From Candidatus Poribacteria bacterium (GTDB taxonomy: Bacteria; Poribacteria; WGA-4E; WGA-3G), in contig JAJDZB010000073.1 of NCBI GenBank assembly GCA_022824835.1, forward strand, positions 23,933-87,932: DNA of 64,000 bases, given 5' to 3'. Position numbers and translations under genes: made by a program. Under the pieces are notes generated by a model. That model was not told where the DNA came from. It searched no databases and was given only the letters and a program-made list of their open reading frames with translations. Shown here one piece after another: positions 7,539-61,675 of the stretch; position 1 is the stretch's first letter; every line of letters starts with the position of its first letter.

Positions 7539-10124
7539 TTATTTGTGTTTGGTCTGATGCGTTTTCTTCAAGGATTCCCATCTGCTTTTCGTGTCTCCTT
7601 GAGTGTTTATGTGTGAAAAATCAAACAACCTATTTTTGAATATACTACTCGTTGAATGTGTCTCTCCATGTATCTCTTCGGCTAAGAAAGGTTGTATTGG
7701 CGCAAGTCTCTGTAGAATAGCAGTTAACATACTTGATACAGTGATATATTTAGAGTCTACATTTTCATCAGTTATCTCGGTTTTAGATAGGTCAATATAA
7801 AAGAGGAGCTCAGATTGGCAAAAATCAAAGAGTAATTGCCATATCTTTGCGTAATCACTTACTTCGTAGTATGCTTCGATCTGTTGAATGTGTTCTCTGG
7901 TTACTGAGATTGCAAGCTTATCCTGTTCAAGTAAGATACTGGTTCTGTCGTCTTCATTTTCATCAGCGAGTGTTCTATGCTTATCTGATCCTGTTCTTTT
8001 TTTCAAATCTTTTAGGAAATTAGCAGCTTGATACAATGCATCTTTAAGTTGTCCATATTTGTTGTAATACTCTTTAATTAACGCTTCTAATTGTTGTTTT
8101 CCATTTCCTTTAATCGGCACTTCATGAATATCAGGTAGTATTGAGACATGTCGTATTACATCTGCTGGATATTCTTGTATGTGTTCTTCAAGCACCTCAG
8201 TTTCCCAAACATGTTCCGCAATATGATGTAACATAATATGCTTGAAGGGTTGGCTTTCTTTAGAGGGACGACTTAATTGCATTGCAGCAGAGAGGATACT
8301 CAATTCTCCTAACCATTTTAGAAATGTTGTTTTTGGTAAGAATATAACATTTCTTGAAGAATCAAGTATCGGTGTTTTAAAGTCAGAACTGTCAAGTGTT
8401 TGAAGTAGGTTTGAGAAATCGCTTTCAATATATGTTGATTCTTTTCTAAAGTCTTTTGAATGACAGTTGACACAGACTGTATCTGTAGGCAATAATTCTT
8501 CTACACTTAATCTGAACCAGTGTTCAGAGCCGCGACGAATTGAACTACGGACTGCTCTAAGGATCTTCTTATCTGTAATTAGATCGTTGCAGTTATCGCA
8601 TCGGAGTACAGGAAGCGGTACTCCCCATTGGCGTTGTGAGGATATGGGCATATCATTGATATTACGTATCTCATTTTGAATAGGGGTTTGTATGTCTTCA
8701 GGATAATGATCCCAATAATCTTGTGAAGTTGAGACTTCCCGAAGAACATTAGGTGACGGATTTGAGAAGAACCAATGGCGATAGGGCCGTGAGACTGATG
8801 TATTGTTGCAATGTTGACAGTGAAGCTGCTGTTTTTTTTCGTTTCTGGCATTAATCAAACATTCCCGTGTTTCTAACTCATCGCTGATAAATTGAATTGC
8901 ATTGAACAAATTTAAACCACATAGTATATCTGTTTCCTCTGTGAACCTGCCAGTTTCATCAAAGATTGGAATTATGGAAGAGGATGAAACAAATTGTTCG
9001 TTTATGAAATTTCCGATCTCTGGCATAGTTTTACATATAGTATAACTTAGCGAATGGTGTGCTGGATTCAACGGGATGATGCCTGATAACATTTCATTTT
9101 TTTCAGATTTCTCTTCAAGAGAAGCATTGACCGCCTCAGGTATAATGACGAATCTTAGGTCTGTTAAAGAAAAAAGCGGGTGTGTTAGACTGCAATCTCT
9201 TAGTTTTGAAGGATTTAATTTTGCGATGGGTTCAGGGAGTTCTGTGCGTTTCGAGTTAGGATGTGCGAATTTTTTTAGTTGTGGTTCAGAGAAAATGATG
9301 TACTGTTTTTCATACTTTGTCAACCAGAAAGGGACTTTTTCATAGATACCGATTGCTATCGTACCCGCGATTTTCCATAATTGCGATATGGGTAGATGCA
9401 CAGCAAAATAGACATCAGTGCCGAACTCCTCAAAACCGCTACTGAATGGAAACTTCACATAAGTAAATGCAATACTTTTCGTTAAGGGGATTGCTGTTTT
9501 TCCTGTTTCTAATGGTGAAAAACAGTTTGGACACCAATGGCTTAAACGTAGTTCGTCCTTCAGGTATTTTGAGTCTCGTAGTCTATCAAAGAAACTAAAT
9601 AGTTTCGTTTCGTGACGTGAGTCCATCGTTCTGTCAGAAGATGACCAATCAGCAAAGATGCCGAGATTTTTGAGTTTTTGCTGCTGCTTTTTGAGACGTT
9701 TCCCGTAAATCTGTCTACACTGCCTTCTAAAATTGATGATGTTGGCAGCTGATGAGATGTTCTCTTTGATGATGTGTGCTTCCACGCTAAATGGAAATGT
9801 TTCCCAAAGAGGCGTATAAGCCACTGTGTGTCCCCGCATCATTTCAGTCTTTAAGAATATGTCCTGATATATTTTCCGTCTGAGCGTATCAACGTTTAAG
9901 GTATCAACAGGTGTCGGCATTTCTCGTATGACATAAGTTGTTCTCTCAGAAGTTTTCTCATTAAAAGCGTAAACGTTCTGCGTTTTCCACAGTTTGAGTA
10001 TTTTCGATGCGATTGAACTCTCTTGTTTGTCTTGAAGTGATTCTACTGTGGATGTTGCTTTTTTAGGACTGTCTTTGGTTCTTTTTGAAGATGTCTTCTT
10101 TGCTTTACTCTTTACCTTATTCAT
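7539..10124 (-). CDS. Isoleucyl-tRNA synthetase-like protein lacking the HIGH and KMSKS motifs (putative pseudo-synthetase)
   Basis: Collinear with IleRS by eye: HWCPNCFSPLE vs HWCxxCxSALAEAE; CQHC..RPYRHWF vs CWRCxTPIxxRATPQWF; SSQRQWGVPLP vs SRQRxWGVPxP; anticodon-domain helix YEVSDYAKIWQLLFDFCQSELLFYIDLSK. The HIGH position reads TLNVDT, and no KMSKS-like loop is present. Sits directly upstream of lspA. Confidence 0.75.
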   Translation of the reverse strand: MNKVKSKAKKTSSKRTKDSPKKATSTVESLQDKQESSIASKILKLWKTQNVYAFNEKTSERTTYVIREMPTPVDTLNVDTLRRKIYQDIFLKTEMMRGHTVAYTPLWETFPFSVEAHIIKENISSAANIINFRRQCRQIYGKRLKKQQQKLKNLGIFADWSSSDRTMDSRHETKLFSFFDRLRDSKYLKDELRLSHWCPNCFSPLETGKTAIPLTKSIAFTYVKFPFSSGFEEFGTDVYFAVHLPISQLWKIAGTIAIGIYEKVPFWLTKYEKQYIIFSEPQLKKFAHPNSKRTELPEPIAKLNPSKLRDCSLTHPLFSLTDLRFVIIPEAVNASLEEKSEKNEMLSGIIPLNPAHHSLSYTICKTMPEIGNFINEQFVSSSSIIPIFDETGRFTEETDILCGLNLFNAIQFISDELETRECLINARNEKKQQLHCQHCNNTSVSRPYRHWFFSNPSPNVLREVSTSQDYWDHYPEDIQTPIQNEIRNINDMPISSQRQWGVPLPVLRCDNCNDLITDKKILRAVRSSIRRGSEHWFRLSVEELLPTDTVCVNCHSKDFRKESTYIESDFSNLLQTLDSSDFKTPILDSSRNVIFLPKTTFLKWLGELSILSAAMQLSRPSKESQPFKHIMLHHIAEHVWETEVLEEHIQEYPADVIRHVSILPDIHEVPIKGNGKQQLEALIKEYYNKYGQLKDALYQAANFLKDLKKRTGSDKHRTLADENEDDRTSILLEQDKLAISVTREHIQQIEAYYEVSDYAKIWQLLFDFCQSELLFYIDLSKTEITDENVDSKYITVSSMLTAILQRLAPIQPFLAEEIHGETHSTSSIFKNRLFDFSHINTQGDTKSRWESLKKTHQTKHK

Positions 10125-20569: not shown

Positions 20570-21670
20570 TCATTTTTTTAACTTTCCCCACTGGGTCTTT
20601 TTTTTCCCAGCAGGCGTAACCGACAGCACATCATCGCTAATCCAGTCTACCGTCTCGTAATTTAATGCATCATGTGTGAGTTGTGTGAGTTCGTCTGTCT
20701 CAAGATCATATTTGTAAATATGAAAATTCTGTATTGGTGTTCCAACGGGACGTATTACGTCGAGTAAGACGGGGCGGGCGGTAAAAATGACCGATTTACC
20801 ATCTTCACCCATCCAGTCTAAACTACCACCATTCAAGTTGGGGGGTATATTCAACTCTTTGATGGTGCTGCCATTTTTGTCGCAAATAATATAGCGATAT
20901 GCCTTATGGATAAGGTGGATAAATGTCACATCCTCCTGTTTCTCCAATTCCCAAGTATATTCGTGTTGTATATAAACAACCCTTTGGCTATCGGGCGACC
21001 ATTTGGGATACGATCTATCAATAACCAATACTCCAGTGCCGCCTATTTGCTGAGGCATAGGGATAAACGGTCTAATCTGTGTGCCATTAGGCTTCATCAC
21101 CCAAATAGTCGTTCCCTGTCCACCTATATCTTTTGATGTAGCATACACAATATACCTGCCATCCGGAGACCAATCCTTTGCATTCATACTGACATCATTG
21201 GCTATCGTTGTAACCTGTCCACTTTTAAAGTTGTATTGTCTGACACTACCGTGAGGAGCACTTCCGTGTGCATGCGGCTTTTGGTAAAAGTGATTAAAAA
21301 CAAAAGACCTGCCATCAGATGAAAAAGCACCTCCTCCCTCATATTCACGTTTCTCTCCCCTATCTGTTTTTTTCGTGATCTGTTGTTGATTTGTGCCATC
21401 CGTATCCATGATAAAAAAGGCATACCCGTAAGACTGCGGGCGAACGCCTTCTTCCCTCACCTGCTTCCGAAACAGGATTTTTTTACCGTCCGGGAACCAT
21501 CTGGCATATCCCGCTCTGTCCCCTTCAGTCAACAATGTGATGTTACTGCCATCATCATCCATCACATAGATACCGGACTGTCCATCGGGACTCGCGTCAA
21601 AAAGGATTTTAGCATTCGCTATCACTCCGAAGCATAGCAGCATGACCAGACTGGTTGTTAATAAACGCAT
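20570..21670 (-). CDS. Secreted PD40/TolB-like beta-propeller protein, paralog 1, with basic C-terminal tag
   Basis: Signal peptide. Repeated WxPDG / SPDG blade motifs (WFPDGKKILF, FSSDGRSFVF, WSPDGRYIVY, WSPDSQRVVY). C-terminus DWISDDVLSVTPAGKKKTQWGKLKK. Confidence 0.7.
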   Translation of the reverse strand: MRLLTTSLVMLLCFGVIANAKILFDASPDGQSGIYVMDDDGSNITLLTEGDRAGYARWFPDGKKILFRKQVREEGVRPQSYGYAFFIMDTDGTNQQQITKKTDRGEKREYEGGGAFSSDGRSFVFNHFYQKPHAHGSAPHGSVRQYNFKSGQVTTIANDVSMNAKDWSPDGRYIVYATSKDIGGQGTTIWVMKPNGTQIRPFIPMPQQIGGTGVLVIDRSYPKWSPDSQRVVYIQHEYTWELEKQEDVTFIHLIHKAYRYIICDKNGSTIKELNIPPNLNGGSLDWMGEDGKSVIFTARPVLLDVIRPVGTPIQNFHIYKYDLETDELTQLTHDALNYETVDWISDDVLSVTPAGKKKTQWGKLKK

Positions 21671-22381: not shown

Positions 22382-23455
22382 TCAATTGTCACGGGACCTT
22401 GATATCCTTACAATCTTTTTTATCGTTCCCCACCGGGTCTTTTTTTTTCCAGCAGGTGTAACAGAAAGTACATCATCACTTATCCAATCTAAACCAGTAA
22501 CCCGTCCAGAAGGACTTGCCAACTGTGTGACATTTCTACTTTTTATATCATACTTATAGATATTGGAAGGTTGTCCACTATCACGAAACCGAACTTTTAG
22601 TTCCACCTCAAATGCATTGAAAACGACAGATTCACCGTTATCCATCCAATCAAGACCGTATGCATGTAAGTTTTTTGGTATCTGCAACTTCCGGGTTGTC
22701 TCGTCCTGTCTATTGTAAATAAAATAGTAATACCCTTGAGGAATATAAAATATCACGCCCTTCTCGTCTTTCCCGAGTGTTTGGAAAGTCTGTTTATACA
22801 GTATCTGTTTACTATCGGGATGCCATCTTGGTGAAAAGTAACTAATGAGCTGACCGTTGTCAGGAGGTCTTGGCAATAGTTCACGCGGATGGCCACCATC
22901 CGATTTCATAATCATGATAGTATTACCACTTACACCCGCAGTTTGAGATGTCGTAAATACGATGTGGTGACCATCAGGAGACCATTTTGGGAAGTCTGCA
23001 AGTGAATCGTAAATCTTTTTGATTTTTCCACTTTTTAGATTCATCATGCAGACACTTTTTTTCTTGTTCCTATTGTTAATTACTTCATATCGACTAAAGA
23101 TGACAGATTCACTGTCTGGTGAAAACGCTGGATAGCTATCTCTTCCAAAAGGTTTTACGGGTGGTGTAAGTTGCCGGATATTCGTACCGTCTGCTGCCAT
23201 TATAAATAGATGCCTTTGTTGAGAATCACGACCTGGTGCTGCACGTCTCGAAAACACTATCTGTTTACCGTTGGGCGACCAGCAAGGGTCGGTTGGACTG
23301 AACAGATCTGTTAGCAACATCTCATTACTACCATCGTCATCCATAACATATATACTATAAATGCCATCGCGTTTAGAACTATAAATTATCTTAGCGTCAA
23401 GCAGTTTTGCAAACAGCAGTAGAATTACGCAGAAGGTGTAAAAGTATAAACGCAC
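22382..23455 (-). CDS. Secreted PD40/TolB-like beta-propeller protein, paralog 2, with basic C-terminal tag
   Basis: Signal peptide. WSPNGKQIVF, FSPDSESVIF, WSPDGHHIVF, WHPDSKQILY. C-terminal DWISDDVLSVTPAGKKKTRWGTIKK plus 10 extra residues. GTG start with GGAG upstream. Confidence 0.7.
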   Translation of the reverse strand: MRLYFYTFCVILLLFAKLLDAKIIYSSKRDGIYSIYVMDDDGSNEMLLTDLFSPTDPCWSPNGKQIVFSRRAAPGRDSQQRHLFIMAADGTNIRQLTPPVKPFGRDSYPAFSPDSESVIFSRYEVINNRNKKKSVCMMNLKSGKIKKIYDSLADFPKWSPDGHHIVFTTSQTAGVSGNTIMIMKSDGGHPRELLPRPPDNGQLISYFSPRWHPDSKQILYKQTFQTLGKDEKGVIFYIPQGYYYFIYNRQDETTRKLQIPKNLHAYGLDWMDNGESVVFNAFEVELKVRFRDSGQPSNIYKYDIKSRNVTQLASPSGRVTGLDWISDDVLSVTPAGKKKTRWGTIKKIVRISRSRDN

Positions 23456-23522: not shown

Positions 23523-24314
23523 CTACTTCCATTCAAAATCATGATCAGTCATAATATCCCAATTGTCTTTCTTAAAATCACCGCCAACGTTTCCTTTAAC
23601 ATAGTGTCGAATATATACATCAGAGTTGTAACTACCCAGATCTCCGCCGCTAATATCTATCTGCATAGATTCCTCATAACTCTCATTATAAGGACCGTAG
23701 GTACCGCCGTTTGCGGTTATTCCCTGCGTCGGTGGATTAGATTCTTTCGTATCTGTAAAACCATTTGGACCGGTGACTGTATGTCTGAATCTGGAGGTGC
23801 TAGTCCACTCAAATTCAGTATCGTTCTGAGCATAAACGGATGCCTCAAATGTTATATAAGGATGTTCATAGGAGTGGCGACTGAGTTCCGTCTCTCCATA
23901 AACACCGGTGTCTGATCCATACCCACTATTTACATCAGGTTTATACACTTTAAAAGTCTTTGTGACGACAATGTCGTCGCCTACAGACTGCATAACATTT
24001 AATTTAAGTGTATGTTCTGTCCCTTGTAGACTGCCGCCAAAATTACTCTCATCATACCAGAGAAAGTCATAGGTTCGCTTACCGTCACCATAAGCTCTAT
24101 CTATCCAGGTATCATCCAGGTAATAGTCTATGCCATGATACGGTTCACTCGTTTGCACATCAACCATCATTATAAAATAATCGTTCGAACTTAAAGAAGA
24201 ATAAACATATAATGACTCAATCTCAATATCGGCATTACTTGTGTTGATAAACCCAAGCAGAATTATAGTGCAGAACAGGATTATTGATATTAATCCTTTG
24301 CTAAATCTTAACAT
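23523..24314 (-). CDS. Hypothetical secreted protein
   Basis: Signal peptide/TM at the N-terminus, Tyr/Asp/Gly-rich mature part, no family recognised. Lies between the sigma gene and PD40 paralog 2. Confidence 0.5.
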   Translation of the reverse strand: MLRFSKGLISIILFCTIILLGFINTSNADIEIESLYVYSSLSSNDYFIMMVDVQTSEPYHGIDYYLDDTWIDRAYGDGKRTYDFLWYDESNFGGSLQGTEHTLKLNVMQSVGDDIVVTKTFKVYKPDVNSGYGSDTGVYGETELSRHSYEHPYITFEASVYAQNDTEFEWTSTSRFRHTVTGPNGFTDTKESNPPTQGITANGGTYGPYNESYEESMQIDISGGDLGSYNSDVYIRHYVKGNVGGDFKKDNWDIMTDHDFEWK

Positions 24315-45173: not shown

Positions 45174-46100
45174 GTGAAACTTTCAATCGTGTCTTATGTT
45201 TTATTCCTAATTACGCTACTCATCATAAACATGTGTATAGCAGACGGGGGTGTTCATACGGATAATATTGTCGTAATCCTTGATGCGTCCGGTTCTATGA
45301 AGAACAAATTCCGAGGGGACGAGACTAAGTCTAAGATGGACGCTGCAAAGGAGGCACTCCAAGAGGTGTTGGCAAAAATTCCTGATGGAACCAATATAGG
45401 TGTGCTCGTATTTAGTGGACGTAATGTGCCAAATGAATGGGTGTATCCACTGGGACCAAAAGACACGAATAGGTTGATCGAAGCTATCAATCGTCCCGAA
45501 CCAGAAGGAGGTACACCGCTTGGGAGATATATCCGTATCGGTGCAAACCGCCTACTTGAACAACGTGAGAAACAGTATAACTACGGGAACTATCGCTTGT
45601 TGATTGTAACGGATGGGGAAGCACAAGATGCTGAAAAAGTCGCACAATACACACCCGAGGTTTTGAATAGGCAGCTTCGGGTTGACGTCATCGGGGTTGA
45701 TATGAAAACGGATCACCAGTTAGCACAGGAGGCGGATAGTTATCGGAGAGCGGATAATCCAGGAGAACTCGTTGCTGCTGTCACACAGATACTCGCTGAA
45801 ACCGGTGGAACTGCTACTGATATCGGTGGTGAAGAAGCATTTGACGATATTGCACCCCTCACACCTGAAATCGCGTTAGACCTTATTCAACGGATTACAA
45901 CACCTGCAAGTAATGCAGCGATAGCGGTTGAAACAACTTCTACAGTACCGAAACAAACGAATACACCGACACAACCGCAGCAACCAACGCAACAACCTTT
46001 ACAAGGGAGTGACAGAGGCGGAAACACACCGTGGATACTTATCGGACTTGTTGTCTTAGTTGCAGGTTATATTATTTTTAGACGCATGGGAAGACATTAG
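45174..46100 (+). CDS. VWA-domain protein with a Pro/Gln/Thr-rich linker and C-terminal TM anchor
   Basis: GTG start 5 nt after AGGAGGGG. MIDAS LDASGSM, GGTPLG, LIVTDGEAQD. C-terminal WILIGLVVLVAGYIIF. Confidence 0.7.
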   Translation: MKLSIVSYVLFLITLLIINMCIADGGVHTDNIVVILDASGSMKNKFRGDETKSKMDAAKEALQEVLAKIPDGTNIGVLVFSGRNVPNEWVYPLGPKDTNRLIEAINRPEPEGGTPLGRYIRIGANRLLEQREKQYNYGNYRLLIVTDGEAQDAEKVAQYTPEVLNRQLRVDVIGVDMKTDHQLAQEADSYRRADNPGELVAAVTQILAETGGTATDIGGEEAFDDIAPLTPEIALDLIQRITTPASNAAIAVETTSTVPKQTNTPTQPQQPTQQPLQGSDRGGNTPWILIGLVVLVAGYIIFRRMGRH

Positions 46101-46101
46101 C

Positions 46102-47709
46102 ATGGAAGCAAAAACAAAAAGTAGAGTCATTATGGTAGCGAGTTGGCTGATTATTATCGGGGTGATCGGTCTTGCCTATAAGTTTCTCGTTGAACCACGG
46201 CTTAGTGGTAGACGTGATAAACTCGTTCAAGATACGAGCACGCGTAATTATGACCACGAAATAAAAATCGCCCACGACTCTTTTCCAGGATATGCTATTT
46301 TACGTTCTGACGCTGTCAAGAACCTACTTGATCGTCAAGCCATTAAACTTACGTTTATTGATGACAAAGCGGACTATGTCAAGAGAGTACGTGATCTCAA
46401 AAGTGGTAAAGTGCAGATGGCGGTTTTTACAATAGATGCATATCTTAAAGCGGGTAATGTTGTTGGTGATTATCCCGGTTCAATTGTTCTGGTCATAGAC
46501 GAATCTAAAGGTGCTGATGCCATGGTAGCACATAAACGTGGTGTTGCGGCTATACCAAATTTGAGCAATCCGGCGGCTAAGATAATACTCACACCGGACT
46601 CACCGAGTGAAACACTTGCACGTATTATGATTAACACGATGAGTCTGCCGAGTCTACCAGCAAATTGGAAATCGGATGCCAATGGGGCAGAAGATGTATA
46701 CAATAAACTAAAATCTGCCGATCCAGACGACCCGTACGCCTATGTTCTTTGGGAACCTTATGTAACAAAAGCACTTGCAATTGATGGCGTCCAATTGCTG
46801 TTGGATAGTTCAAAAATAAAAGGATATATCGTTGATGTCTTAGTGGTTCAACGGGAATTTCTAAACTCTCAACGCGAACTTGTTACCCCTGTTGTGCAAG
46901 CCTATCTCCGGGCAAACTACGATTACACAAACCAACCGGATGGATTGCTGTCATTAATTCAGGAAGATGCAAAGCAGTATGGTGACACATTAAATCAGAA
47001 TGAAGCGAGTAAACTTGTAAAAGGTATTGAATGGCGTAACACCGTTGAGAATTATGCTCATTTCGGTATTATCACGGGTTCAGCGGCGAAAGAAGCGGAG
47101 AAACTTGACACGATGATACAGAAAATAATGCAAGTTCTTGTCAAAACCAAATCCCTGCCATCCGATCCGTTAGCTGGGAATTATGGACAGTTATACTATG
47201 AAGGAATTTTACGTGCATTAAATACAGACGAGTTCCATCCCGGTGTGCTCAGTAGTAGCGCCACTGAGGGTTTAGAAGGTATCCTTGTAGATACTTCAAG
47301 TGTGATAGAGGAGAAAGTGCGTGAAGATAAAGCACTCAATCCACTCTCGGATACGAACTGGAATAATCTTGCGCCTGTTGCAGCGATGAAGATTGAGCCG
47401 ATTCAATTCGGCAGGGGGAATGCTCGTATTCTTCCCGGTAGTAAACGTGCTCTCACCGACATTGCATCCAAGCTCAAGTCGTTCCCTCAATACTATCTTC
47501 GAGTCGTTGGACACACACGTGCGGAAGGGGACGCTACAGCGAATAAGGTTCTGGCAACACAACGCGCAGAAGCCGCAGCGAAGGCACTCAGGGAACTGGG
47601 TATTGCAAATCATAGAATACGCGCTATTGCTGGCACTCGGAATGCATTTAAGAAGCATGGCGGCGAAGCGCAAAGCGTGACTTTTGAATTGTTAGGTCAG
47701 GCGTATTAG
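46102..47709 (+). CDS. Membrane-anchored SBP-like (SsuA/TauA-like) plus OmpA-like fusion protein
   Basis: ATG at 46102, one nt after the upstream stop. N-terminal TM helix. WEPYVTKAL..DVLVVQREFL resembles NMT1/TauA-type binding proteins. C-terminal LRVVGHTRAEGD..NKVLATQRAEAAAKAL is OmpA/MotB-like. Confidence 0.55.
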   Translation: MEAKTKSRVIMVASWLIIIGVIGLAYKFLVEPRLSGRRDKLVQDTSTRNYDHEIKIAHDSFPGYAILRSDAVKNLLDRQAIKLTFIDDKADYVKRVRDLKSGKVQMAVFTIDAYLKAGNVVGDYPGSIVLVIDESKGADAMVAHKRGVAAIPNLSNPAAKIILTPDSPSETLARIMINTMSLPSLPANWKSDANGAEDVYNKLKSADPDDPYAYVLWEPYVTKALAIDGVQLLLDSSKIKGYIVDVLVVQREFLNSQRELVTPVVQAYLRANYDYTNQPDGLLSLIQEDAKQYGDTLNQNEASKLVKGIEWRNTVENYAHFGIITGSAAKEAEKLDTMIQKIMQVLVKTKSLPSDPLAGNYGQLYYEGILRALNTDEFHPGVLSSSATEGLEGILVDTSSVIEEKVREDKALNPLSDTNWNNLAPVAAMKIEPIQFGRGNARILPGSKRALTDIASKLKSFPQYYLRVVGHTRAEGDATANKVLATQRAEAAAKALRELGIANHRIRAIAGTRNAFKKHGGEAQSVTFELLGQAY

Positions 47710-51066: not shown

Positions 51067-53685
51067 TCATTTTACAATAGAGAATTTACCTGCGCTTCGG
51101 TATCCGTTTCCATCGCTTGCCATGTAGAAGTATAGTCCGGTACAGACCTTTTCACCATTTTGATTGGTACAATCCCAATTCGACGCATTCTCTATTACCT
51201 TAATTAAGTTACCCGTTACATCATAGATTTCAACTTTTAGACCTTTTGGGTAAAATGAAAGGTGTTGGTTCCCAAGAGTTGGACGAATTGGATTTGGTGC
51301 AACTACTACTTTGCGGTTCGTACTGTTCTGTAGATAACTGAAAGATTGTCCTTGCCAGATTCTGTTACCGGTTTTACCTGATAGGTTCTTTCCAGAAATC
51401 TTATATAAGTAAATCCCGGTAGCAGGGAATCCGTTTGTCTGTAGAGTCCCACGCCATTTTGTAGGAGACACCTGGAATAAGGTGATGTTATAGGTATCCC
51501 TATTTGGTGCTTCTACTGATAACATCGGCGCACTTTGAAGTGCATGCGTGCTTGTCACCTCAACATGCCACTCGCCTGTGCCGTGTTGTTGTGTATTGAT
51601 GAAAAACGATGGTGCTTGGTTTGCTGATTCTATGGCCGGTGAAAAGCTATCTGGAGCGATACTCGGTGTTCCCATAATTCCTATAGCGTCCGCCGGCACA
51701 ACTGCATAGTAATAGTGTACCATGTCTTCAGGGTCAACGTCCTGGAAAACTGTTCTATCTTCAAACTGCCCCTGTTGTGGGATTTGCGTCAATGAGACGC
51801 GTCCGACAACAGTGATGTCGTCTTCAGCAATGCCATCTCCGTTGCGATCAACGGCTGCGAGCACTTCAGCATCGGATTGGAAGGTTTGCGGTTCATCTGT
51901 TTCACTATTTAAGACGTATCGTTTTCTGACGATAGCGACTTCCTGAATACCCGTTGGGTCATCAACAGTCCAATTGAGCAAAGCACCAGAAGTGCCTTGT
52001 GATACTTGGACGTTTGCGAGTTGTCCTTTCGGTGGTGCGCCAGCAACAAAACTGATAGAACCACCAGTAGTACCACCCGGAACTACCACCTGTTCAACAT
52101 CAGCGTGCATATTGATAAGAATAAGTGTAATTTCTTTAATCACGCCACCGAAATCATTGAATGTGATTTGTGCTTCCTGAGACTTATGATATGTGAAGGC
52201 TTCTCTGATTTCAATTTTATTGTTCTGTTTCTTTACAATGAATTTTGCAGCCCACCCACGTAATCCTGTGCCATTGAGTCTGTTAAGTTCGCTCTGGATA
52301 TTGTTTCTGTCTTCAATTGTCAGAGCACTCATATCATAAGGCGCAAGGTCAGCACCATCAATTTTGATTGCGAATTCTGGCATGACGCCTTGTGGTCGGA
52401 ATACGATATAACGACACGAAAAGTGTTCTGGCATCGCCTCAGAATCGAAGTGCGTACCAATCGGATATTGACTGTGAACATCGTTTGGGTGGATTGCGAC
52501 AGTAGGGAACCTTTCAGCGTTTCTATACCCTTGTATATCAACAGTCGTATTCGCGCGTGTATACGTAAAATAATTCCATACAGTAAAAGTCTTGAAAGCT
52601 TCTGCGAGGGTTGTACCGTTGTCTATAAAGACATCATAAAAGTTACCGAATTCGCGATAACTGCCATCTGTCGTATTGGTATAAAACTGGCGTATGATGT
52701 CATAGCCGAATCGTTCTGCCATATAGAGCGACCAGATGACTGACCCGTATTCATGGTCACCGATTCTACTCTCAAGGGAAATATCGGGTATATTAAACCA
52801 TCGGCGTAGTTGATGGATGTAATAGTTATAAGCGTTAGTCTCGGTCGGTTCATCGGGATCAGGGAGTGTGTCTCCATCGTCAACGACACCGCCATCATAA
52901 GTCATCACCTCAATCCACGTAGCAGATGATTCCATGAACCAGGTTGGCATATAGGCGTTATATGCAAACTGTATCCCGTGCAGGAATTCATGTGCGCATG
53001 TGGTTTCAAGATATCGTATCCCCTCTGCTTTTCCGACATAATCGTAGATACGTGAGTTGATCATGAAATAGGGAGCGATTGTCAACGCAGTGGATAGTAC
53101 CCGTCCTTCAAACCAGTCTGCTGTTGTGATACCGAGTGCTGGGAAGGTAAACAGGTATACATCCATTTTATGGTCGCCGCCGTTCTGTGCTGCCCAAAAA
53201 TCCATGTAAGGTTTCTTGAACCCCATGAGATCAATTTGAACGTGATAGGCGCGTTCCATCGCATCAGCACAGAGATCGATATAATCAGGGACTCCGTTAC
53301 GGGGATGAAAGTCTTCAAGCGGCGGTGCGTGGGGTCCTCTGCGTGTATAGTGGAGTTTGAAATGCGGTGTGTTAAAGTGTTCTGTAAGGACAATATCACC
53401 GAAGAAACTTCCCGGAAGTCCTGGACGGAGGAAAACCGGTTTTAATTCTTGCCGTAGTGTTGATGGGATGTTTTGCCAGTTTTTCGCGACCGTTACAAAA
53501 CTATCCGTAGCACATTCCATGACGTCGCCAGGTGAATATCTCGGTTTGAGATTAGTGAACTTTCGTACATTTTGAATGGCACTTTGAAGGTCTGCATCTG
53601 GAGGGAGTGCATAACTGATACACGAAATAGTTACTGTAAATAGGAGGACAGCAGTAAAATATGTATTTTTGGCGATTTTTTTCAT
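51067..53685 (-). CDS. Secreted HEXXH metalloprotease-like protein with a T9SS/FlgD-Ig-like C-terminal domain
   Basis: Signal peptide. TCAHEFLHGIQFAY..WFMESSATWIE (HEXXH plus a downstream Glu). C-terminal LKVEIYDVTGNLIKVI...GLYFYMA..GKFSIVK beta-sandwich sorting-domain pattern. Confidence 0.65.
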   Translation of the reverse strand: MKKIAKNTYFTAVLLFTVTISCISYALPPDADLQSAIQNVRKFTNLKPRYSPGDVMECATDSFVTVAKNWQNIPSTLRQELKPVFLRPGLPGSFFGDIVLTEHFNTPHFKLHYTRRGPHAPPLEDFHPRNGVPDYIDLCADAMERAYHVQIDLMGFKKPYMDFWAAQNGGDHKMDVYLFTFPALGITTADWFEGRVLSTALTIAPYFMINSRIYDYVGKAEGIRYLETTCAHEFLHGIQFAYNAYMPTWFMESSATWIEVMTYDGGVVDDGDTLPDPDEPTETNAYNYYIHQLRRWFNIPDISLESRIGDHEYGSVIWSLYMAERFGYDIIRQFYTNTTDGSYREFGNFYDVFIDNGTTLAEAFKTFTVWNYFTYTRANTTVDIQGYRNAERFPTVAIHPNDVHSQYPIGTHFDSEAMPEHFSCRYIVFRPQGVMPEFAIKIDGADLAPYDMSALTIEDRNNIQSELNRLNGTGLRGWAAKFIVKKQNNKIEIREAFTYHKSQEAQITFNDFGGVIKEITLILINMHADVEQVVVPGGTTGGSISFVAGAPPKGQLANVQVSQGTSGALLNWTVDDPTGIQEVAIVRKRYVLNSETDEPQTFQSDAEVLAAVDRNGDGIAEDDITVVGRVSLTQIPQQGQFEDRTVFQDVDPEDMVHYYYAVVPADAIGIMGTPSIAPDSFSPAIESANQAPSFFINTQQHGTGEWHVEVTSTHALQSAPMLSVEAPNRDTYNITLFQVSPTKWRGTLQTNGFPATGIYLYKISGKNLSGKTGNRIWQGQSFSYLQNSTNRKVVVAPNPIRPTLGNQHLSFYPKGLKVEIYDVTGNLIKVIENASNWDCTNQNGEKVCTGLYFYMASDGNGYRSAGKFSIVK

Positions 53686-54015: not shown

Positions 54016-56544
54016 TTATTTCCGCAATAACATTTTCCGGGTTGCAGTAAAATCTCCAGTGGATAACGTGCAAAAATACAAACCGCTTGCAACAGGTTCG
54101 CCAGAATCGTTGCGTCCATCCCAATATGCTGCACGATCCTTGTTGTAATAAGTGCCAGCAGGTTGATTGCCTAATTCTATCGTCCTTATTTTGTGACCGT
54201 TCATATCATATATTGATACGGTTACATCAGTAGTAGACTCTAACTGATAAGGTATCCACGTTTCTGGATTAAAGGGGTTCGGATAGTTTTCAAGCAAACG
54301 TGTTTGGGTTGGGTTCAACACTTTGACAAACTGTTGCAGGATCGCAATTCCTTTTCTTACAGTAACATCCCTATTCGGTAATTGTTCTGCTTTCTTAATC
54401 CAACGGTTTACTGTTTCTGCATCAAGTTGTGCAATCTGATGTGGGTGTAAGGGGGCAGCATCAGAATTAGTATCTAACGCATTGACAACTAACAGCAGGT
54501 CAATAACGTTTACTTCTCCGTCTCTATTGACATCTGGGTTAGGAAATACATCGCCGATGATAGTTTTTCCAAAGTTCACAGCAACAAGCACAAGATCACT
54601 TATATCCACTATGCCATCCCCGTTTATATCAGTGCGATTCTCAACTGATGTGGATGCACCCGCTTTTAGCAAGAAATCATGCAGTGTGATATTGCCATAG
54701 ACGTCAATAATCAGTAAAGTTATAGGATTGTATGGAAAACGTGTCAAAGAAGTAATATCAAAATGTACGGTGCTGCTTATTGCCTCTATTTTCTGACAAC
54801 TCTGTAGTTTAGTACCTGTAGCAGGATCATTGCCGGTAGTTTGAACATGAAGCTGAACTTGATGTATCCCATCCAGATCAGTGATCTGAAATAGAATCGT
54901 ATGGTTTTCTGCATTTGATGGGTACACCTCAGAAGTTAACATTTGAACAGTTGTGGGTTCGTTAAATGCGGTTTGTTCTATATTGAAGAACCGATTTACG
55001 TTAAACCATTCTGTTGCACACATTGAGAACCTGTCAGCGTCAGCACCGTAGGACATGATGTATTTCTCGTCTCTGAAATCATGTGTTAAACCGAATGCGT
55101 GTCCAAGTTCATGTGCGACGACATATTTACCGACATCACCATCAAAGCACTTACCTGAAGCGGGAATAAGAGCATATCCACCGCGTGAGAATACCTGGTG
55201 TTGATTTCCGATCCATAGTGTTCCACCTATACCACAGGCGCTGTTCCTTTCAATTGCTTCAGCACCAGTTTCTACGAAGATAAGATTAATGTGTTTATTT
55301 TCTTCAAATTGGGTTGATAGCTCATTTGTAATCTTCTTGCTTGTATCGGCATAATAGTATGCGTCATTAAACCTTCCGCGAGTTTGATGAACGAGAACGG
55401 ATCCGTTTTCACCTGATTCGAAAGTAAATGTTTTGCGTGCAAATCCGTTTGCTTCCATCTGATCAGCATAGAAAGTTTGCACGTCTTTTAGCAGATGATC
55501 CAGCTTTGTTCTTATATCGGGTTGAGGGGAACGGTCGTTTGGGACGAAGTAGATAATTCTCACCAATTCTTCTATAGACGTCTGATATGCAGTGACATCC
55601 CAGAGCCGAAGTGTTCCATCATCACCACCACTGATTAATGATGTGTTGTCCGGTGAAAATGATGCGGAATTTACCCATCCTTTGTGTCCCAAGAATGTCG
55701 CGATATTAGCACCATCTGTGATGTTCCATAGGTTGATTGCTTCGTAATCTGTCGTTGCAAGTGTCATACCGTCTGTTGAGAAATTGAGGTCTGTCACTGT
55801 TGCTTTGGTAGGCAATGTGCCGATATGTTCCCAATTGGATAGTTTCCACAATTTCACACCACTGTTATATCCAGCACTTGCCAATATTTGATTATCTGGA
55901 GAAAACTGCAAGGCGGAAATCAGATCAGTATCTGCCTGAAATTCTGCTACTTCCAGGCGGTTTCGAACATTTATGATTCTCACTTTACCACGGACATCTC
56001 CCATCGCAAGAGTTCTCCCATCATGAGAGAAGGCTAATGCGATTACCCATTCGTCATGTCTGAAGGTTATCAATTCTCTGTATGTATGTATATCCCATAG
56101 TTTTACATGATACCCTGCTGTAGCAAACATCTGTCCGTTTGGAGAGAATGAAATTTCCTTTATCTGCGATTGTGCGAAATCTGTCGTATGTCTGAGAGTT
56201 ACAATTTGGCTCTGTTTCTCAATATCCCACAATTTGATCGTATAGTCATCGCTGCCACTGACAAGTTTTTTGCCATCAGGAGAAAATGCGATTGCGTTGA
56301 TAGTTTTAGTGTGATTTCCAAGTATGGTAACTGTATCTTCCTCAAGGTCCCATAGCTTTATTGCATGTCCTCCACCTGCGCTTGCTATTAACTTAGAATT
56401 TACGGGTGAATATGCAACGGCTTGTACAACCCCGCCGTGCGTAATGGATGTGTGGTCTTGCGCAGCAGTGATATAGGGAGCAGATGTCAAAATGAAGAGA
56501 ATGAGAAAACACTGTATTCTTTGCATGCCTGTATTCTTTAACAT
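54016..56544 (-). CDS. Mosaic secreted protein: WD40 beta-propeller, metzincin protease, dockerin-like repeats and a T9SS type A C-terminal sorting domain
   Basis: Seven WD-like blades (IKLWD, VKLWD, VKLWK, LRLWD). VAHELGHAFGLTHDF..YIMSY (HExxHxxGxxHD plus Met-turn). DINGDGIVDISDLVLV and DVNRDGEVNVIDLLLV. C-terminal NYPNPFNPETWIPYQL..VSIYDMNG..GLYFCTL. Confidence 0.75.
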   Translation of the reverse strand: MLKNTGMQRIQCFLILFILTSAPYITAAQDHTSITHGGVVQAVAYSPVNSKLIASAGGGHAIKLWDLEEDTVTILGNHTKTINAIAFSPDGKKLVSGSDDYTIKLWDIEKQSQIVTLRHTTDFAQSQIKEISFSPNGQMFATAGYHVKLWDIHTYRELITFRHDEWVIALAFSHDGRTLAMGDVRGKVRIINVRNRLEVAEFQADTDLISALQFSPDNQILASAGYNSGVKLWKLSNWEHIGTLPTKATVTDLNFSTDGMTLATTDYEAINLWNITDGANIATFLGHKGWVNSASFSPDNTSLISGGDDGTLRLWDVTAYQTSIEELVRIIYFVPNDRSPQPDIRTKLDHLLKDVQTFYADQMEANGFARKTFTFESGENGSVLVHQTRGRFNDAYYYADTSKKITNELSTQFEENKHINLIFVETGAEAIERNSACGIGGTLWIGNQHQVFSRGGYALIPASGKCFDGDVGKYVVAHELGHAFGLTHDFRDEKYIMSYGADADRFSMCATEWFNVNRFFNIEQTAFNEPTTVQMLTSEVYPSNAENHTILFQITDLDGIHQVQLHVQTTGNDPATGTKLQSCQKIEAISSTVHFDITSLTRFPYNPITLLIIDVYGNITLHDFLLKAGASTSVENRTDINGDGIVDISDLVLVAVNFGKTIIGDVFPNPDVNRDGEVNVIDLLLVVNALDTNSDAAPLHPHQIAQLDAETVNRWIKKAEQLPNRDVTVRKGIAILQQFVKVLNPTQTRLLENYPNPFNPETWIPYQLESTTDVTVSIYDMNGHKIRTIELGNQPAGTYYNKDRAAYWDGRNDSGEPVASGLYFCTLSTGDFTATRKMLLRK

Positions 56545-59169: not shown

Positions 59170-59889
59170 ATGAAGAAATTAGCAATTTTATTCACAATTG
59201 CTTGTTTAACCATTGCACCAACCGCATTCGCTCAAGATTGGCAGCCGGCAGGTGATCAATGGATTGAAAGATGGTGGGCACTCGATTTAGTCACGAATAC
59301 TGGCGGGTTCAACAACTCTGCCGCTCAAGACTATCTTGACGCCGGCACCAGTGGCGATTATAATAATTATTCAGTATCCACACGGTACGGTGCTGGACTG
59401 ACTGGAAAAGGGGCAGTTTACTTGCCAGATAACGGCGGTACGCTCGTCTGGTCTGTCGTTGATCTTGACACAGAGGCGGGAAATAACATGTCCCTGGCTT
59501 TCGGTCCTAATCCTTTGGACGAATTTACTTGGCACGGTATCCTGCTTATCTTGTCTCCAGATGAACGCACAACCACAATGTATCCATCACATGATGATTA
59601 TGCAGAAATATGGTTGAACGGAAGTAAGGTGTATGACAATCCTGCCTGGACAGGTGGTGTTAGAAACGTAACGCGGCCAACAGAGGTAGACCTAATCCAA
59701 GGTGAAAACTTCCTCCACTATAAGTGCGGCGAAGGCGGTGGTGGTGATTATATTAATTTGCGTTTTGATGAAGCTGATACCGACCTGCAGATCGCACCAA
59801 CACTGGATGGACAATTCTTGAATGTGCTTACACCAGTTGAACCCCGCAATAAAGTTACTACAACTTGGGCAGATATTAAACGAAAATAA
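59170..59889 (+). CDS. Secreted hypothetical beta-sandwich-like protein with a basic C-terminal tag
   Basis: Signal peptide ending AFAQD. AEIWLNGSKVYDN..GENFLHYKCGEGGGGDYINLRF resembles PA14/lectin-like folds (weak). C-terminus LTPVEPRNKVTTTWADIKRK. Confidence 0.5.
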   Translation: MKKLAILFTIACLTIAPTAFAQDWQPAGDQWIERWWALDLVTNTGGFNNSAAQDYLDAGTSGDYNNYSVSTRYGAGLTGKGAVYLPDNGGTLVWSVVDLDTEAGNNMSLAFGPNPLDEFTWHGILLILSPDERTTTMYPSHDDYAEIWLNGSKVYDNPAWTGGVRNVTRPTEVDLIQGENFLHYKCGEGGGGDYINLRFDEADTDLQIAPTLDGQFLNVLTPVEPRNKVTTTWADIKRK

Positions 59890-61651: not shown

Positions 61652-61675
61652 ATATGGTATTTGTTAGGTAGGACT

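What the first reader, a model, noticed from the sequence alone, without database searches (positions are those of the whole stretch)
20570..20650. Short conserved basic C-terminal tag on three secreted proteins, a possible undescribed sorting signal
**The tag.** Three signal-peptide proteins in this window end with the same very short motif.

| Protein (gene coordinates) | C-terminal sequence |
|---|---|
| 20570-21670 | ..LSVTPAGKKKTQWGKLKK* |
| 22382-23455 | ..LSVTPAGKKKTRWGTIKK, plus 10 further residues |
| 59170-59889 | ..LTPVEPRNKVTTTWADIKRK* |

The consensus is roughly (S/T)-x-x-P-x-x-K-x-x-T-x-W-G/A-x-I/L-K-K/R at or near the C-terminus.

**Why it stands out.**
- The third protein has an unrelated fold, so the tag is modular.
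- It differs from the roughly 80-aa T9SS/FlgD-Ig C-terminal domains on the two proteases in the same window. It has no TM helix, so it is not PEP-CTERM or LPXTG-like.
- In the two PD40 paralogs, nucleotide identity in the tag-coding segment (20580-20650 vs 22425-22495) looks clearly higher than in the gene bodies.

**Interpretation.** This could be a lineage-specific export, anchoring or processing signal.
Basis: seen in the sequence. Interest (0 to 1): 0.7.

Follow-up and report, generated by a model that had tools for sequence, protein, structure and literature searches.

The report
Phylum-wide C-terminal tag on secreted proteins
Three secreted proteins in this window end in a short, strongly conserved peptide that also ends roughly a thousand unrelated exported proteins of the uncultured sponge-associated phylum Poribacteria; it looks like an undescribed address label for the cell envelope, but its function is untested.

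Summary

- **The motif.** The three window proteins carry a roughly 17-residue C-terminal motif, [LTF]-[APS]-V-[ED]-[PA]-x-[GD]-K-L-[AT]-T-T-W-[GA]-x-[LI]-K, followed by 1-6 residues and the stop codon.
- **Distribution.** About 108 loci are titled Poribacteria. All but one chance hit lie 1-12 residues before a stop codon.
- **Carriers.** The tag sits on at least 31 unrelated families, including LamG, CBM9, CBM4_9, discoidin, PA14-like, PD40, Kelch, BNR, ankyrin and a nuclease. 93% of carriers have a signal-peptide-like N-terminus, against 29% of neighbouring ORFs.
- **Selection.** All synonymous codons are used at conserved positions, so selection acts on the peptide.
- **Structure.** AlphaFold2 places the tag outside the folded domain in two unrelated folds (pLDDT below about 50).
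- **Novelty.** No Pfam model, NCBIfam model, PDB chain or searchable paper matches it.
- **Known signals.** It has no transmembrane helix and fails the tests for PEP-CTERM, LPXTG and the T9SS C-terminal domain.

It most likely acts after Sec export as a linear sorting or docking signal read by an unidentified Poribacteria-specific partner. That function, any cleavage and the partner remain unshown.

The parts
20573..20626 (-). Tag-coding segment of PD40 protein 1: LSVTPAGKKKTQWGKLKK, followed directly by the stop codon at 20570-20572. This is the PD40-family variant of the motif (KKK-T-Q-W in place of K-L-[AT]-T-T-W).
   Evidence: translation; 81 of 120 homologues end with DWISDDVLSV[ST]PxGKKKVTWGxLK[QK]*. 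AlphaFold2 pLDDT is below 40 for residues 350-366.
20570..21670 (-). Gene for secreted PD40/TolB-like beta-propeller 1 (366 aa). It has a signal peptide, a propeller and the C-terminal tag.
   Evidence: PD40, DPPIV_N, TolB-like. AlphaFold2 mean pLDDT 88, with the propeller mostly above 90.
21608..21670 (-). Signal peptide of PD40 protein 1 (MRLLTTSLVMLLCFGVIANA|K).
   Evidence: read directly from the sequence (basic n-region, hydrophobic core, ANA cleavage motif).
22415..22468 (-). Tag-coding segment of PD40 protein 2: LSVTPAGKKKTRWGTIKK.
22385..22414 (-). A 10-residue extension after the tag of PD40 protein 2 (IVRISRSRDN). This is unusually long, since the mode elsewhere is 3 residues.
   Evidence: One search gives the distribution of residues after the tag. 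One search shows extended variants in the PD40 family.
22382..23455 (-). Gene for secreted PD40 beta-propeller 2 (357 aa, GTG start). It is a paralogue of protein 1, 41% identical.
59827..59886 (+). Tag-coding segment of protein 3: LTPVEPRNKVTTTWADIKRK, close to the canonical form of the motif. The stop codon is at 59887-59889.
   Evidence: nearly all of 108 homologues (down to 38% identity) end with PVEPxGKLTTTWADIKxx*; tail pLDDT is about 50.
59170..59889 (+). Gene for a secreted 239-aa PA14/CBM35-like beta-sandwich protein with signal peptide (MKKLAILFTIACLTIAPTAFA|Q) and C-terminal tag.
   Evidence: AlphaFold2 pLDDT 88; Foldseek hits to PA14 and CBM35 carbohydrate-binding domains, E about 1e-4.

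Best explanation
The tag is a short linear C-terminal sorting or docking signal of the phylum Poribacteria.

**Proposed mechanism.**
1. The cargo is exported to the periplasm by Sec through its N-terminal signal peptide.
2. The folded domain carries a flexible 17-residue tail, V-[ED]-[PA]-x-G-K-L-[AT]-T-T-W-[GA]-x-[LI]-K plus a few mostly basic or polar residues.
3. A common, lineage-specific protein partner binds this tail in trans. The partner could be a receptor, a transpeptidase or an outer-membrane translocon.
4. The partner retains, attaches or passes the cargo to the cell envelope or surface.

The cargo is a large repertoire of mostly non-catalytic glycan-binding and eukaryote-like repeat proteins.

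**Shown here.**
- The motif and its strict position near the C-terminus.
- Its modularity across unrelated folds.
- Its restriction to signal-peptide proteins and to Poribacteria.
- Selection at the peptide level.
- Its place outside the folded domain.

**Inferred, not shown.** That it is bound by a partner, and that the outcome is localisation.
For: **Conservation in the protein 3 family.** Nearly all of 108 homologues, down to 38% identity, keep PVEPxGKLTTTWADIKxx at the very end.

**Genome-wide pattern scan.** A DNA pattern for K-L-[TA]-T-T-W-[GA]-x-[ILMF]-K gave only 2 hits in IMG/VR, which is the chance level. About 108 loci are titled Poribacteria. All but one of the instances in those loci (the Synechococcus-titled L054) end 1-12 residues (mostly 1-6) before a stop codon.

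**Positions outside the search pattern are conserved too.** Val at W-10 is 94% conserved, [ED] at W-9 and [PA] at W-8.

**Codon usage.** All synonymous codons are used at conserved residues.

**Signal peptides.** 136 of 147 tagged ORFs have a signal-peptide-like start, against 186 of 636 untagged ORFs (p = 6e-48).

**Carrier diversity.** At least 31 carrier families. Pfam identifies Laminin_G_3, CBM9, CBM_4_9, F5/8 type C, 3-keto-disaccharide-hydrolase-like, lamin tail domain, PD40, Kelch, BNR, ankyrin with an HExxH motif, SNase and DUF3108-like.

**Size of the repertoire.**
- A tag profile hits 1,786 cluster representatives (50% identity clusters) at E <= 0.001.
- About 134 of the 144 new sequences among the 150 best hits carry the tag at the C-terminus.

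**Structure.** AlphaFold2 with deep alignments gives confident domains. The tail has low confidence and no packing in two unrelated folds, even though it is the best-conserved segment. That is the signature of a linear motif read by another molecule.

**Against a plain lipid anchor.** The tag is too polar. Mean hydrophobicity is negative and the hydrophobic moment is 0.17-0.37, below the PBP5 and MinD anchors. The PD40 variant replaces Leu at W-4 by Lys.

**Context in the literature.** Kamke et al. 2014 (PMC3909097) reported that Poribacteria carry T9SS-like C-terminal domains but no Por structural genes. The envelope-sorting routes of this phylum are therefore an acknowledged gap.
Against: - No partner gene was found. 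No untagged family is consistently adjacent to tagged genes.
- No proteomic or localisation data exist for these uncultured bacteria.
- There is no transmembrane segment. All well-characterised short C-terminal sorting signals (LPXTG, PEP-CTERM, GlyGly-CTERM) have one.
- The tag need not be at the extreme end. 31 of 120 PD40 homologues carry 10-42 further residues after it. Recognition of a free C-terminus is therefore excluded, and cleavage is uncertain.
- Some large proteins carry both a FlgD-Ig/T9SS-like C-terminal domain and the tag (L032, L064, L099). That is hard to reconcile with a simple model in which each protein carries a single sorting signal.
Confidence: 0.5

Rival explanations
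1. **Direct envelope anchor without a protein partner.** The basic, Trp-containing tail binds a membrane surface, LPS, a capsule or peptidoglycan by itself. The model is the C-terminal amphipathic helix that holds E. coli PBP5/6 on the periplasmic face of the inner membrane (established knowledge).
For: - AlphaFold2 predicts a short helix over W-A-D-I-K-R in protein 3.
- L(W-4), W and L/I(W+3) would lie on one helical face, flanked by Lys and Arg.
- A PD40 subfamily extends the tag by a conserved 23-26 residue amphipathic segment.
Against: - Mean hydrophobicity is negative and the hydrophobic moment is 0.17-0.37, well below PBP5 or MinD anchors.
- The PD40 variant replaces L(W-4) and [AT](W-3) by Lys.
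- Physical anchors tolerate sequence drift. Here V, K, T-T-W-G and K are 91-100% conserved across unrelated families, and the non-helical V-E-P-x-G part is conserved too.
Confidence: 0.13
2. **Modification or processing site rather than an address.** The motif would be a sequon for a periplasmic enzyme. Examples are O-glycosylation of the T-T(-T) run, modification of Trp or Lys, or a protease site near V-E-P-x-G. The modification or cleavage itself would be the function, for maturation, turnover or release.
For: - The invariant T-T-W and the two invariant Lys are plausible enzyme targets.
- V-E-P resembles the cleavage-region signature of PEP-CTERM (own knowledge).
- A large polytopic DUF6785/DUF6784 membrane protein lies next to tagged genes in 3 of 120 loci (L071, L077, L094).
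Against: - Nothing links DUF6785 to protein modification (one search found no papers).
- The adjacency is weak and partly due to synteny.
- A sequon would not need to sit next to the C-terminus in about 99% of cases.
Confidence: 0.12
3. **Assembly handle.** The tail inserts into a groove of another copy or of a scaffold protein, by donor-strand or helix exchange or a mini-dockerin mode. This would build a multi-lectin surface coat or complex.
For: - Cargo is dominated by small single-domain carbohydrate-binding modules, as in cellulosome-like systems.
- Tagged genes often occur in tandem arrays.
- The tail is free in monomer models.
Against: - No scaffold with repeated acceptor modules was seen.
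- The carriers have many different folds, so self-complementation is unlikely.
- This rival overlaps with the best explanation, since a scaffold would count as the partner.
Confidence: 0.1
4. **Not a peptide signal at all.** The conservation would reflect a DNA or RNA element at gene 3' ends, such as a terminator, a repeat or a mobile element, or an annotation artefact.
Against: - All four Thr, Val, Pro and Gly codons, six Leu codons and both Lys codons are used at the conserved positions over 159 instances.
- There are nine synonymous differences within the identical residues of the two window paralogues.
- The motif is always in frame with a long ORF that has a signal peptide.
Confidence: 0.01
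5. **The end of a longer, already defined domain**, for example the last strand of LamG or of a T9SS C-terminal domain.
For: Most carriers in the sample are LamG proteins (84 of 159).
Against: - The same tag follows at least 30 other families.
- Pfam Laminin_G_3 ends before the tag: it covers residues 80-234 of a 263-aa example.
- Isolated tails hit no Pfam or NCBIfam model at E <= 10.
- AlphaFold2 leaves it unpacked.
Confidence: 0.01

Closest known systems
PEP-CTERM / exosortase sorting signal (TIGR02595)
   Same: - Found at the C-terminus of Sec-exported proteins.
- Present in many paralogous copies per genome and lineage-restricted.
- Often found on LamG-type and low-complexity proteins.
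- Starts with a V/P-E-P-like signature and ends in basic residues.
   Different: - The PEP-CTERM transmembrane helix of about 20 residues between motif and basic cluster is absent. Only about 12 polar residues (G-K-L-T-T-T-W-G-x-L-K) lie there.
- No NCBIfam PEP-CTERM-type model hits.
- No exosortase gene was seen, although whole genomes were not searched.
Type IX secretion C-terminal domain (Por_Secre_tail / TIGR04183)
   Same: - A C-terminal signal on Sec-exported cargo of diverse function.
- Present in the same genomes, including two proteins in this window.
- Ends in basic residues.
   Different: - The T9SS C-terminal domain is a folded beta-sandwich of 70-100 residues. The tag is 17 residues and unstructured.
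- There is no profile similarity.
- In some proteins the tag follows such a domain instead of replacing it.
LPXTG / sortase cell-wall sorting signal, including class E LAXTG
   Same: - A short conserved C-terminal peptide on secreted proteins.
- L-A-T-T-W-G superficially recalls L-A-x-T-G.
   Different: - No hydrophobic segment or charged tail follows.
- A Trp is inserted before the Gly.
- The host is a diderm phylum.
- No NCBIfam sortase-signal model hits.
C-terminal amphipathic membrane anchor of periplasmic penicillin-binding proteins 5/6 (E. coli DacA/DacC)
   Same: A C-terminal tail of a signal-peptide-exported protein, outside the folded domain, with no transmembrane helix.
   Different: - The tag is much less hydrophobic and less amphipathic.
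- The tag is far more conserved in sequence, across unrelated families.
Cargo-loading peptides of encapsulins and dockerin-type docking modules
   Same: - A short C-terminal peptide after a flexible linker that addresses diverse cargo to one common partner.
- T-W-G-x-I-K-R loosely recalls encapsulin T-V-G-S-L-R-R (own knowledge).
   Different: - Encapsulin cargo is cytoplasmic and lacks signal peptides. Here 93% of carriers have one.
- Dockerins are folded calcium-binding modules of about 70 residues.
- No shell or cohesin-like partner was found.

Membership tests
PEP-CTERM (exosortase substrates) | Match to the PEP-CTERM family of profile models (TIGR02595 and its NCBIfam variants) | tested here: not met
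   NCBIfam scans of the three full proteins (E <= 1) and of eight canonical tails (E <= 10) gave no sorting-signal model.
PEP-CTERM (exosortase substrates) | Hydrophobic transmembrane helix of about 20 residues between the PEP motif and a terminal Arg/Lys cluster | tested here: not met
   Only 12 residues lie between V-E-P and the end of the core. Mean Eisenberg hydrophobicity is -0.07 to -0.38.
PEP-CTERM (exosortase substrates) | Co-occurrence with an exosortase (EpsH/Xrt) gene in the genome | not testable with these tools
   Only 8-kb blocks around tagged genes were available, and none of the recurrent neighbours scanned was an exosortase. Whole Poribacteria proteomes could not be searched.
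Type IX secretion C-terminal domain | Folded C-terminal beta-sandwich of 70-100 residues matching Por_Secre_tail, CHU_C or TIGR04183 | tested here: not met
   No Pfam or NCBIfam hit for the tails. The tail is 17-20 residues and unstructured in AlphaFold2 models. True T9SS-like domains in the window do hit.
Type IX secretion C-terminal domain | Presence of T9SS core genes (PorK/L/M/N, SprA, PorU/V) | not tested
   Kamke et al. 2014 (PMC3909097) reported none in Poribacteria single-cell genomes. This was not re-examined here.
LPXTG/sortase signal | LPXTG-type pentapeptide followed by a hydrophobic stretch and a positively charged tail | tested here: not met
   The logo shows K-L-[AT]-T-T-W-G-x-L-K followed by 1-6 polar or basic residues and the stop codon, with no hydrophobic stretch. 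No NCBIfam hit.
C-terminal amphipathic membrane anchor (PBP5-like) | Strongly amphipathic, net hydrophobic helix of about 18 residues | tested here: not met
   Over the whole segment the hydrophobic moment is 0.17-0.37 and <H> is below 0, against 0.43 and +0.38 for PBP5. The best 11-residue windows give 0.32-0.52, against 0.66 for PBP5. The PD40 variant has Lys at two positions on the would-be hydrophobic face.
Generic C-terminal protein-sorting signal (working class) | Fixed position at or near the C-terminus, on many unrelated cargo families within a lineage | tested here: met
   All but one of the instances in the genome loci lie 1-12 residues (mostly 1-6) before the stop. At least 31 carrier families. 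About 108 of 120 loci are titled Poribacteria.
Generic C-terminal protein-sorting signal (working class) | Restricted to proteins that cross the cytoplasmic membrane | tested here: met
   136 of 147 tagged against 186 of 636 untagged ORFs have a signal-peptide-like N-terminus (heuristic; p = 6e-48).
Generic C-terminal protein-sorting signal (working class) | A dedicated recognition or processing machinery, and an effect on localisation | not testable with these tools
   No consistent neighbour gene. No experimental data exist for these uncultured organisms.

The most novel reading that the evidence does not exclude
The tag defines a new class of bacterial protein-sorting signal. It would be a 17-residue address with no transmembrane segment, read in the periplasm by a still unknown, Poribacteria-specific machinery. 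That machinery would display or release a repertoire of perhaps a hundred or more lectin-like and eukaryote-like repeat proteins per genome at the symbiont surface. It would then be the missing export or anchoring route for the proteins thought to mediate sponge-symbiont interaction.
Probability: 0.4. Interest if true: 0.85.

Novelty: new variant of a known kind. Interest (0 to 1): 0.72.

Why it matters
**Why the phylum matters.** Poribacteria are among the most abundant sponge symbionts, and none has been cultured. Their genomes are full of secreted lectin-like and eukaryote-like repeat proteins. How these reach the cell surface or the host is an acknowledged gap (Kamke et al. 2014, PMC3909097).

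**What the tag offers.**
- A single strongly conserved tag shared by about a thousand protein clusters gives a handle on that exoproteome.
- It allows a clean bioinformatic definition of the cargo set.
- It supports phylogenetic profiling for the machinery.
- It gives a peptide for pull-downs and antibodies for localisation in sponge tissue.

**What it would add.** If the machinery proves new, the tag would be a sorting signal with no transmembrane segment, alongside LPXTG, PEP-CTERM, GlyGly-CTERM and the T9SS C-terminal domain.

**Practical uses.** The motif is a near-diagnostic marker for Poribacteria contigs. It also deserves a profile model in annotation pipelines.

Tried and rejected
1. 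**Short tag profile in the search for homologous proteins.**
   - The padded profile returned only 26 short ORF fragments, because candidate collection favours short proteins. They were useful as seeds but not for counting.
2. **Literature.**
   - Motif strings, 'Poribacteria' with 'sorting', 'C-terminal motif' or 'LamG', exosortase/T9SS terms and DUF6785 gave no description of the tag.
   - Only the Kamke 2014 remark on orphan T9SS-like domains turned up.
3. **Neighbour analysis for a dedicated enzyme or transporter.**
   - The recurrent neighbours were ASPIC/FG-GAP propellers, TPR proteins, Gfo/Idh/MocA oxidoreductases, ECF sigma factors, PhyH and DUF6785/6784.
   - All belong to multi-copy families or to syntenic orthologous regions. 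None is consistent enough to name as machinery.
4. **Taxonomy through the listing of cluster members.** No names or accessions were returned.
5. **The look-up of encoding contigs on PD40 protein 1.** It returned only a 6-kb contig with the same genes as the window.
6. **Other readings.** The DNA-element and known-domain readings were rejected, as covered under the rival explanations. The PDB sequence search found nothing.
7. **Window ORF 7539-10124.** Its end...TKSRWESLKK..., looked similar. It is a class I tRNA synthetase and does not fit the motif, so the resemblance is chance.
8. **Per-genome count.**
   - It could not be measured, because the genome scan stops at 120 rows.
   - The only unbiased sample is this window: 3 tags in 64 kb.
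   - That extrapolates to roughly 50-700 per 5-Mb genome. The range is my own Poisson estimate.
Full report
**1. The observation**

| Gene | Length | C-terminus | Tag coordinates |
|---|---|---|---|
| 20570-21670(-) | 366 aa | LSVTPAGKKKTQWGKLKK* | 20573-20626 |
| 22382-23455(-) | 357 aa | LSVTPAGKKKTRWGTIKK + IVRISRSRDN* | 22415-22468 |
| 59170-59889(+) | 239 aa | LTPVEPRNKVTTTWADIKRK* | 59827-59886 |

- All three start with Sec-type signal peptides.
- A six-frame scan for T.W[GA].[IL]K finds only these three sites. Shuffled windows give 0.12 on average.
- The first two proteins are PD40/TolB-like beta-propellers.
- The third has no Pfam family. AlphaFold2 models it confidently (mean pLDDT 88). 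Foldseek places it with PA14 and CBM35 sugar-binding beta-sandwiches.

The PD40 paralogues are 41% identical in protein and 53% in DNA overall, but 80% and 77% over the last 25 codons. Nine of the identical residues use different synonymous codons.

**2. The motif is far larger than the window**

*Protein 3 family.* Homologues of protein 3 number 108, down to 38% identity. Those with names are from Candidatus Poribacteria. Almost all end with PVEPxGKLTTTWADIKxx*.

*Pattern scan.* I scanned public collections with a degenerate DNA pattern for K-L-[TA]-T-T-W-[GA]-x-[ILMF]-K.
- IMG/VR gave 2 hits, about the chance expectation.
- About 108 of those loci are titled Poribacteria. Six are titled 'uncultured bacterium'.
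- One sits in a Planctomycetota-labelled bin, but its protein is 78% identical to a Poribacteria protein. One sits in a Pseudomonadota-labelled bin.
- One, in Synechococcus, is a chance hit inside a short ORF.
- Every true instance lies 1-12 residues (mostly 1-6, mode 3) before a stop codon.

*Logo.* The logo from 159 instances is: [LTF]-[APS]-V(94%)-[ED]-[PA]-x-[GD]-K-L-[AT]-T-T-W-[GA]-x-[LI]-K. It is followed by a few residues rich in R, Q, S and K. The upstream half, V-[ED]-[PA]-x-G, was not in the search pattern, so its conservation is independent evidence.

*Repertoire size.* A profile of the tag against 1.84 billion cluster representatives found 1,786 hits at E <= 0.001. About 134 of the 144 new sequences among the 150 best hits carry the tag at the C-terminus. 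Seven of the 144 are giant LamG-repeat proteins that match only the LamG part of the profile.

**3. Peptide, not DNA**

At the conserved positions all four codons of Thr, Val, Pro and Gly, six Leu codons and both Lys codons are used. A terminator, repeat or mobile element is excluded.

**4. Modular and specific to exported proteins**

- After removing the tag, BLAST single-linkage clustering puts the carriers into at least 31 families.
- Pfam identifies the following families:
  - Laminin_G_3 (the majority), CBM9, CBM_4_9, F5/8 type C and 3-keto-disaccharide-hydrolase-like;
  - lamin tail domain, PD40, Kelch, BNR/Asp-box and ankyrin with an HExxH motif;
  - staphylococcal-nuclease-like and DUF3108-like.
  
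  Several carrier families have no Pfam hit at all.
- Most carriers are 220-300 aa single-domain proteins.
- With one heuristic applied to all ORFs, 136 of 147 complete tagged ORFs have a signal-peptide-like start, against 186 of 636 untagged ORFs (Fisher p = 6e-48).
- The one cytoplasmic look-alike in the window, a tRNA synthetase ending ...TKSRWESLKK..., does not fit the motif.

**5. The PD40 family at the reported coordinates**

This family has 900 hits at E <= 1e-5. I examined the best 120.
- 81 end with a family-specific variant, DWISDDVLSV[ST]PxGKKKVTWGxLK[QK]*.
- The variant keeps V(W-10), P(W-8), G(W-6), K(W-5), T-W-G and [LI]-K, but has Lys-Lys in place of L-[AT].
- 31 carry further residues after the tag. 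About 25 of these share a conserved 23-26 residue extension, KFLQSRSEAFKSLSQNVLFFLRNQR.
- The 10-residue extension of the window's second paralogue belongs to this tendency.
- A free C-terminus directly after the motif is therefore not required.

**6. The tag lies outside the fold**

AlphaFold2 with 57- and 86-sequence alignments gives confident domains with mostly pLDDT above 90.
- In protein 3 the tail has pLDDT about 50, with at most a two-turn helix over WADIKR.
- In PD40-1 the tail has pLDDT below 40 and no secondary structure.
- The tail is nevertheless among the most conserved segments of each family alignment.

High conservation without intramolecular packing, in different folds, is what a short linear motif read by another molecule looks like.

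**7. Comparison with known signals**

- The full proteins and isolated canonical tails hit no NCBIfam (June 2026) or Pfam model at E <= 1 or E <= 10. No PDB chain matches.
- There is no hydrophobic segment. Mean hydrophobicity is negative, and the hydrophobic moment is 0.17-0.37, below the PBP5 and MinD amphipathic anchors.
- The tripartite signals (LPXTG, PEP-CTERM, GlyGly-CTERM and similar) therefore fail on a defining feature.
- So does the 70-100 residue T9SS C-terminal domain. That domain is present on two other proteins of this window (51067-53685 and 54016-56544). In some Poribacteria proteins it directly precedes the tag (L032, L064, L099).
- V-E-P followed by a basic end recalls PEP-CTERM, and LATTWG recalls class E sortase LAXTG. 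Both are resemblances from memory, not memberships.
- No paper in the searchable library contains the motif or describes such a tag.
- Kamke et al. 2014 noted that Poribacteria have T9SS-like C-terminal domains but no Por genes, and that the pathway "remains to be revealed".

**8. Mechanism**

The best-supported reading is a post-Sec sorting or docking signal. The flexible tail would be bound by a common, lineage-specific partner that retains, attaches or translocates a large set of glycan-binding and eukaryote-like repeat proteins at the envelope. My confidence is about 0.5.

| Status | Point |
|---|---|
| Shown | Conservation; position near the C-terminus; modularity; restriction to signal-peptide proteins; restriction to Poribacteria; peptide-level selection; place outside the fold |
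| Inferred | The existence of a partner; the localisation outcome |

Rivals:
- A direct lipid, LPS or peptidoglycan anchor. The polarity, the strict sequence conservation and the Lys-for-Leu variant weaken it.
- A modification or processing sequon.
- An assembly handle.
- A DNA element, or the end of a known domain. Both are refuted.

**9. What I could not find**

No dedicated machinery emerged. Neighbour analysis over 120 8-kb blocks plus the window shows no universal partner. The most frequent neighbour is an ASPIC/UnbV FG-GAP propeller. It is often preceded by a TPR protein and sometimes an FGE-sulfatase-like gene. It lies next to tagged genes of five different families, in about six independent contexts including window 59969-63696. 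That family is multi-copy and several of the contexts are syntenic, so this is only a lead. A DUF6785/DUF6784 polytopic membrane protein is found in three loci (L071, L077, L094), directly beside tagged genes in two of them.

**10. Verdict**

This is a real, strongly conserved, phylum-restricted and apparently undescribed C-terminal tag on the Poribacterial exoproteome. I rate it a new variant of a known kind, namely C-terminal sorting signals. It could prove categorically new if the machinery turns out to be new. Interest is 0.72.

Noticed in passing
P0286, P0289, P0299, P0306, P0312, P0316, P0332, P0340, P0361, P0363, P0364, P0378, P0385 (homologues of window 20570-21670); compare window 22385-22414: A subfamily of the PD40 proteins carries a conserved 23-26 residue amphipathic extension after the tag (...WGKLKKFLQSRSEAFKSLSQNVLFFLRNQR*). 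The tag can therefore be internal. The extension may be a second envelope-binding element or a relic of a longer signal.
   Followed up: partly
window 59969-63696 (-); loci L035, L048, L067, L068, L088, L097, L112, L117, L120: A cassette lies beside tagged genes of five different families, often co-directionally. It consists of a TPR protein, sometimes an FGE-sulfatase-like protein, and an ASPIC/UnbV FG-GAP beta-propeller, all with signal peptides. It may be functionally linked, or merely a multi-copy family with syntenic contexts.
   Followed up: partly
window 51067-53685 (-) and 54016-56544 (-); loci L006, L032, L064, L099: T9SS-like C-terminal domains (CHU_C or Por_Secre_tail; ...GLYFxTLxxGDFTATRKMLxRK*) occur on large secreted proteins, although Poribacteria were reported to lack Por genes. 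In large lamin-tail-domain proteins (968 to more than 1,391 aa), a FlgD-Ig-like C-terminal domain is followed directly by the tag, so both elements sit on one protein.
   Followed up: partly
L071 2623-4551 and 6771-8000, L077 3664-5592, L094 5764-7848: A 640-690 aa polytopic membrane protein (Pfam DUF6785 + DUF6784, E = 3e-139) occurs in 3 of the 120 loci fetched by the tag pattern (L071, L077, L094), directly beside tagged genes in two. No literature exists on these families.
   Followed up: partly
L002 300-329 (IMG/VR contig IMGVR_UViG_3300012947_000048): One of the two 'viral' pattern hits is a genuine tag at the end of an ORF (...RPKLATTWGHLKSGK*). The contig is either a Poribacteria fragment classed as viral, or a phage or prophage that carries a tagged gene.
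   Followed up: no
L101 (JACNGQ010000400.1, 'Planctomycetota bacterium NIOZ-UU13'), L059 (JAPPIL010000222.1, 'Pseudomonadota bacterium RHO2_bin_21'): Tagged genes occur on short contigs of bins labelled as other phyla. The L101 protein is 78% identical to a Poribacteria protein (L116), which suggests mis-binning. The tag could serve as a contamination marker.
   Followed up: partly
window 23523-24314 (-): A 263-aa protein with a signal peptide and no Pfam hit lies directly upstream of the two tagged PD40 genes on the same strand. It has no tag (it ends ...DHDFEWK*).
   Followed up: no
window 45174-46100 (+): A vWA-domain protein ends in a hydrophobic helix plus a basic cluster (...NTPWILIGLVVLVAGYIIFRRMGRH*). 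This is a classical C-terminal membrane anchor or tripartite-like signal, in contrast to the tag. An OmpA-domain protein is encoded next to it (46060-47709).
   Followed up: no
window 7539-10124 (-): A class I tRNA synthetase ends ...GDTKSRWESLKKTHQTKHK, which superficially resembles the tag. It does not fit the motif (no G/A after W, no K-L upstream) and the protein is cytoplasmic, so this is a chance resemblance.
   Followed up: yes
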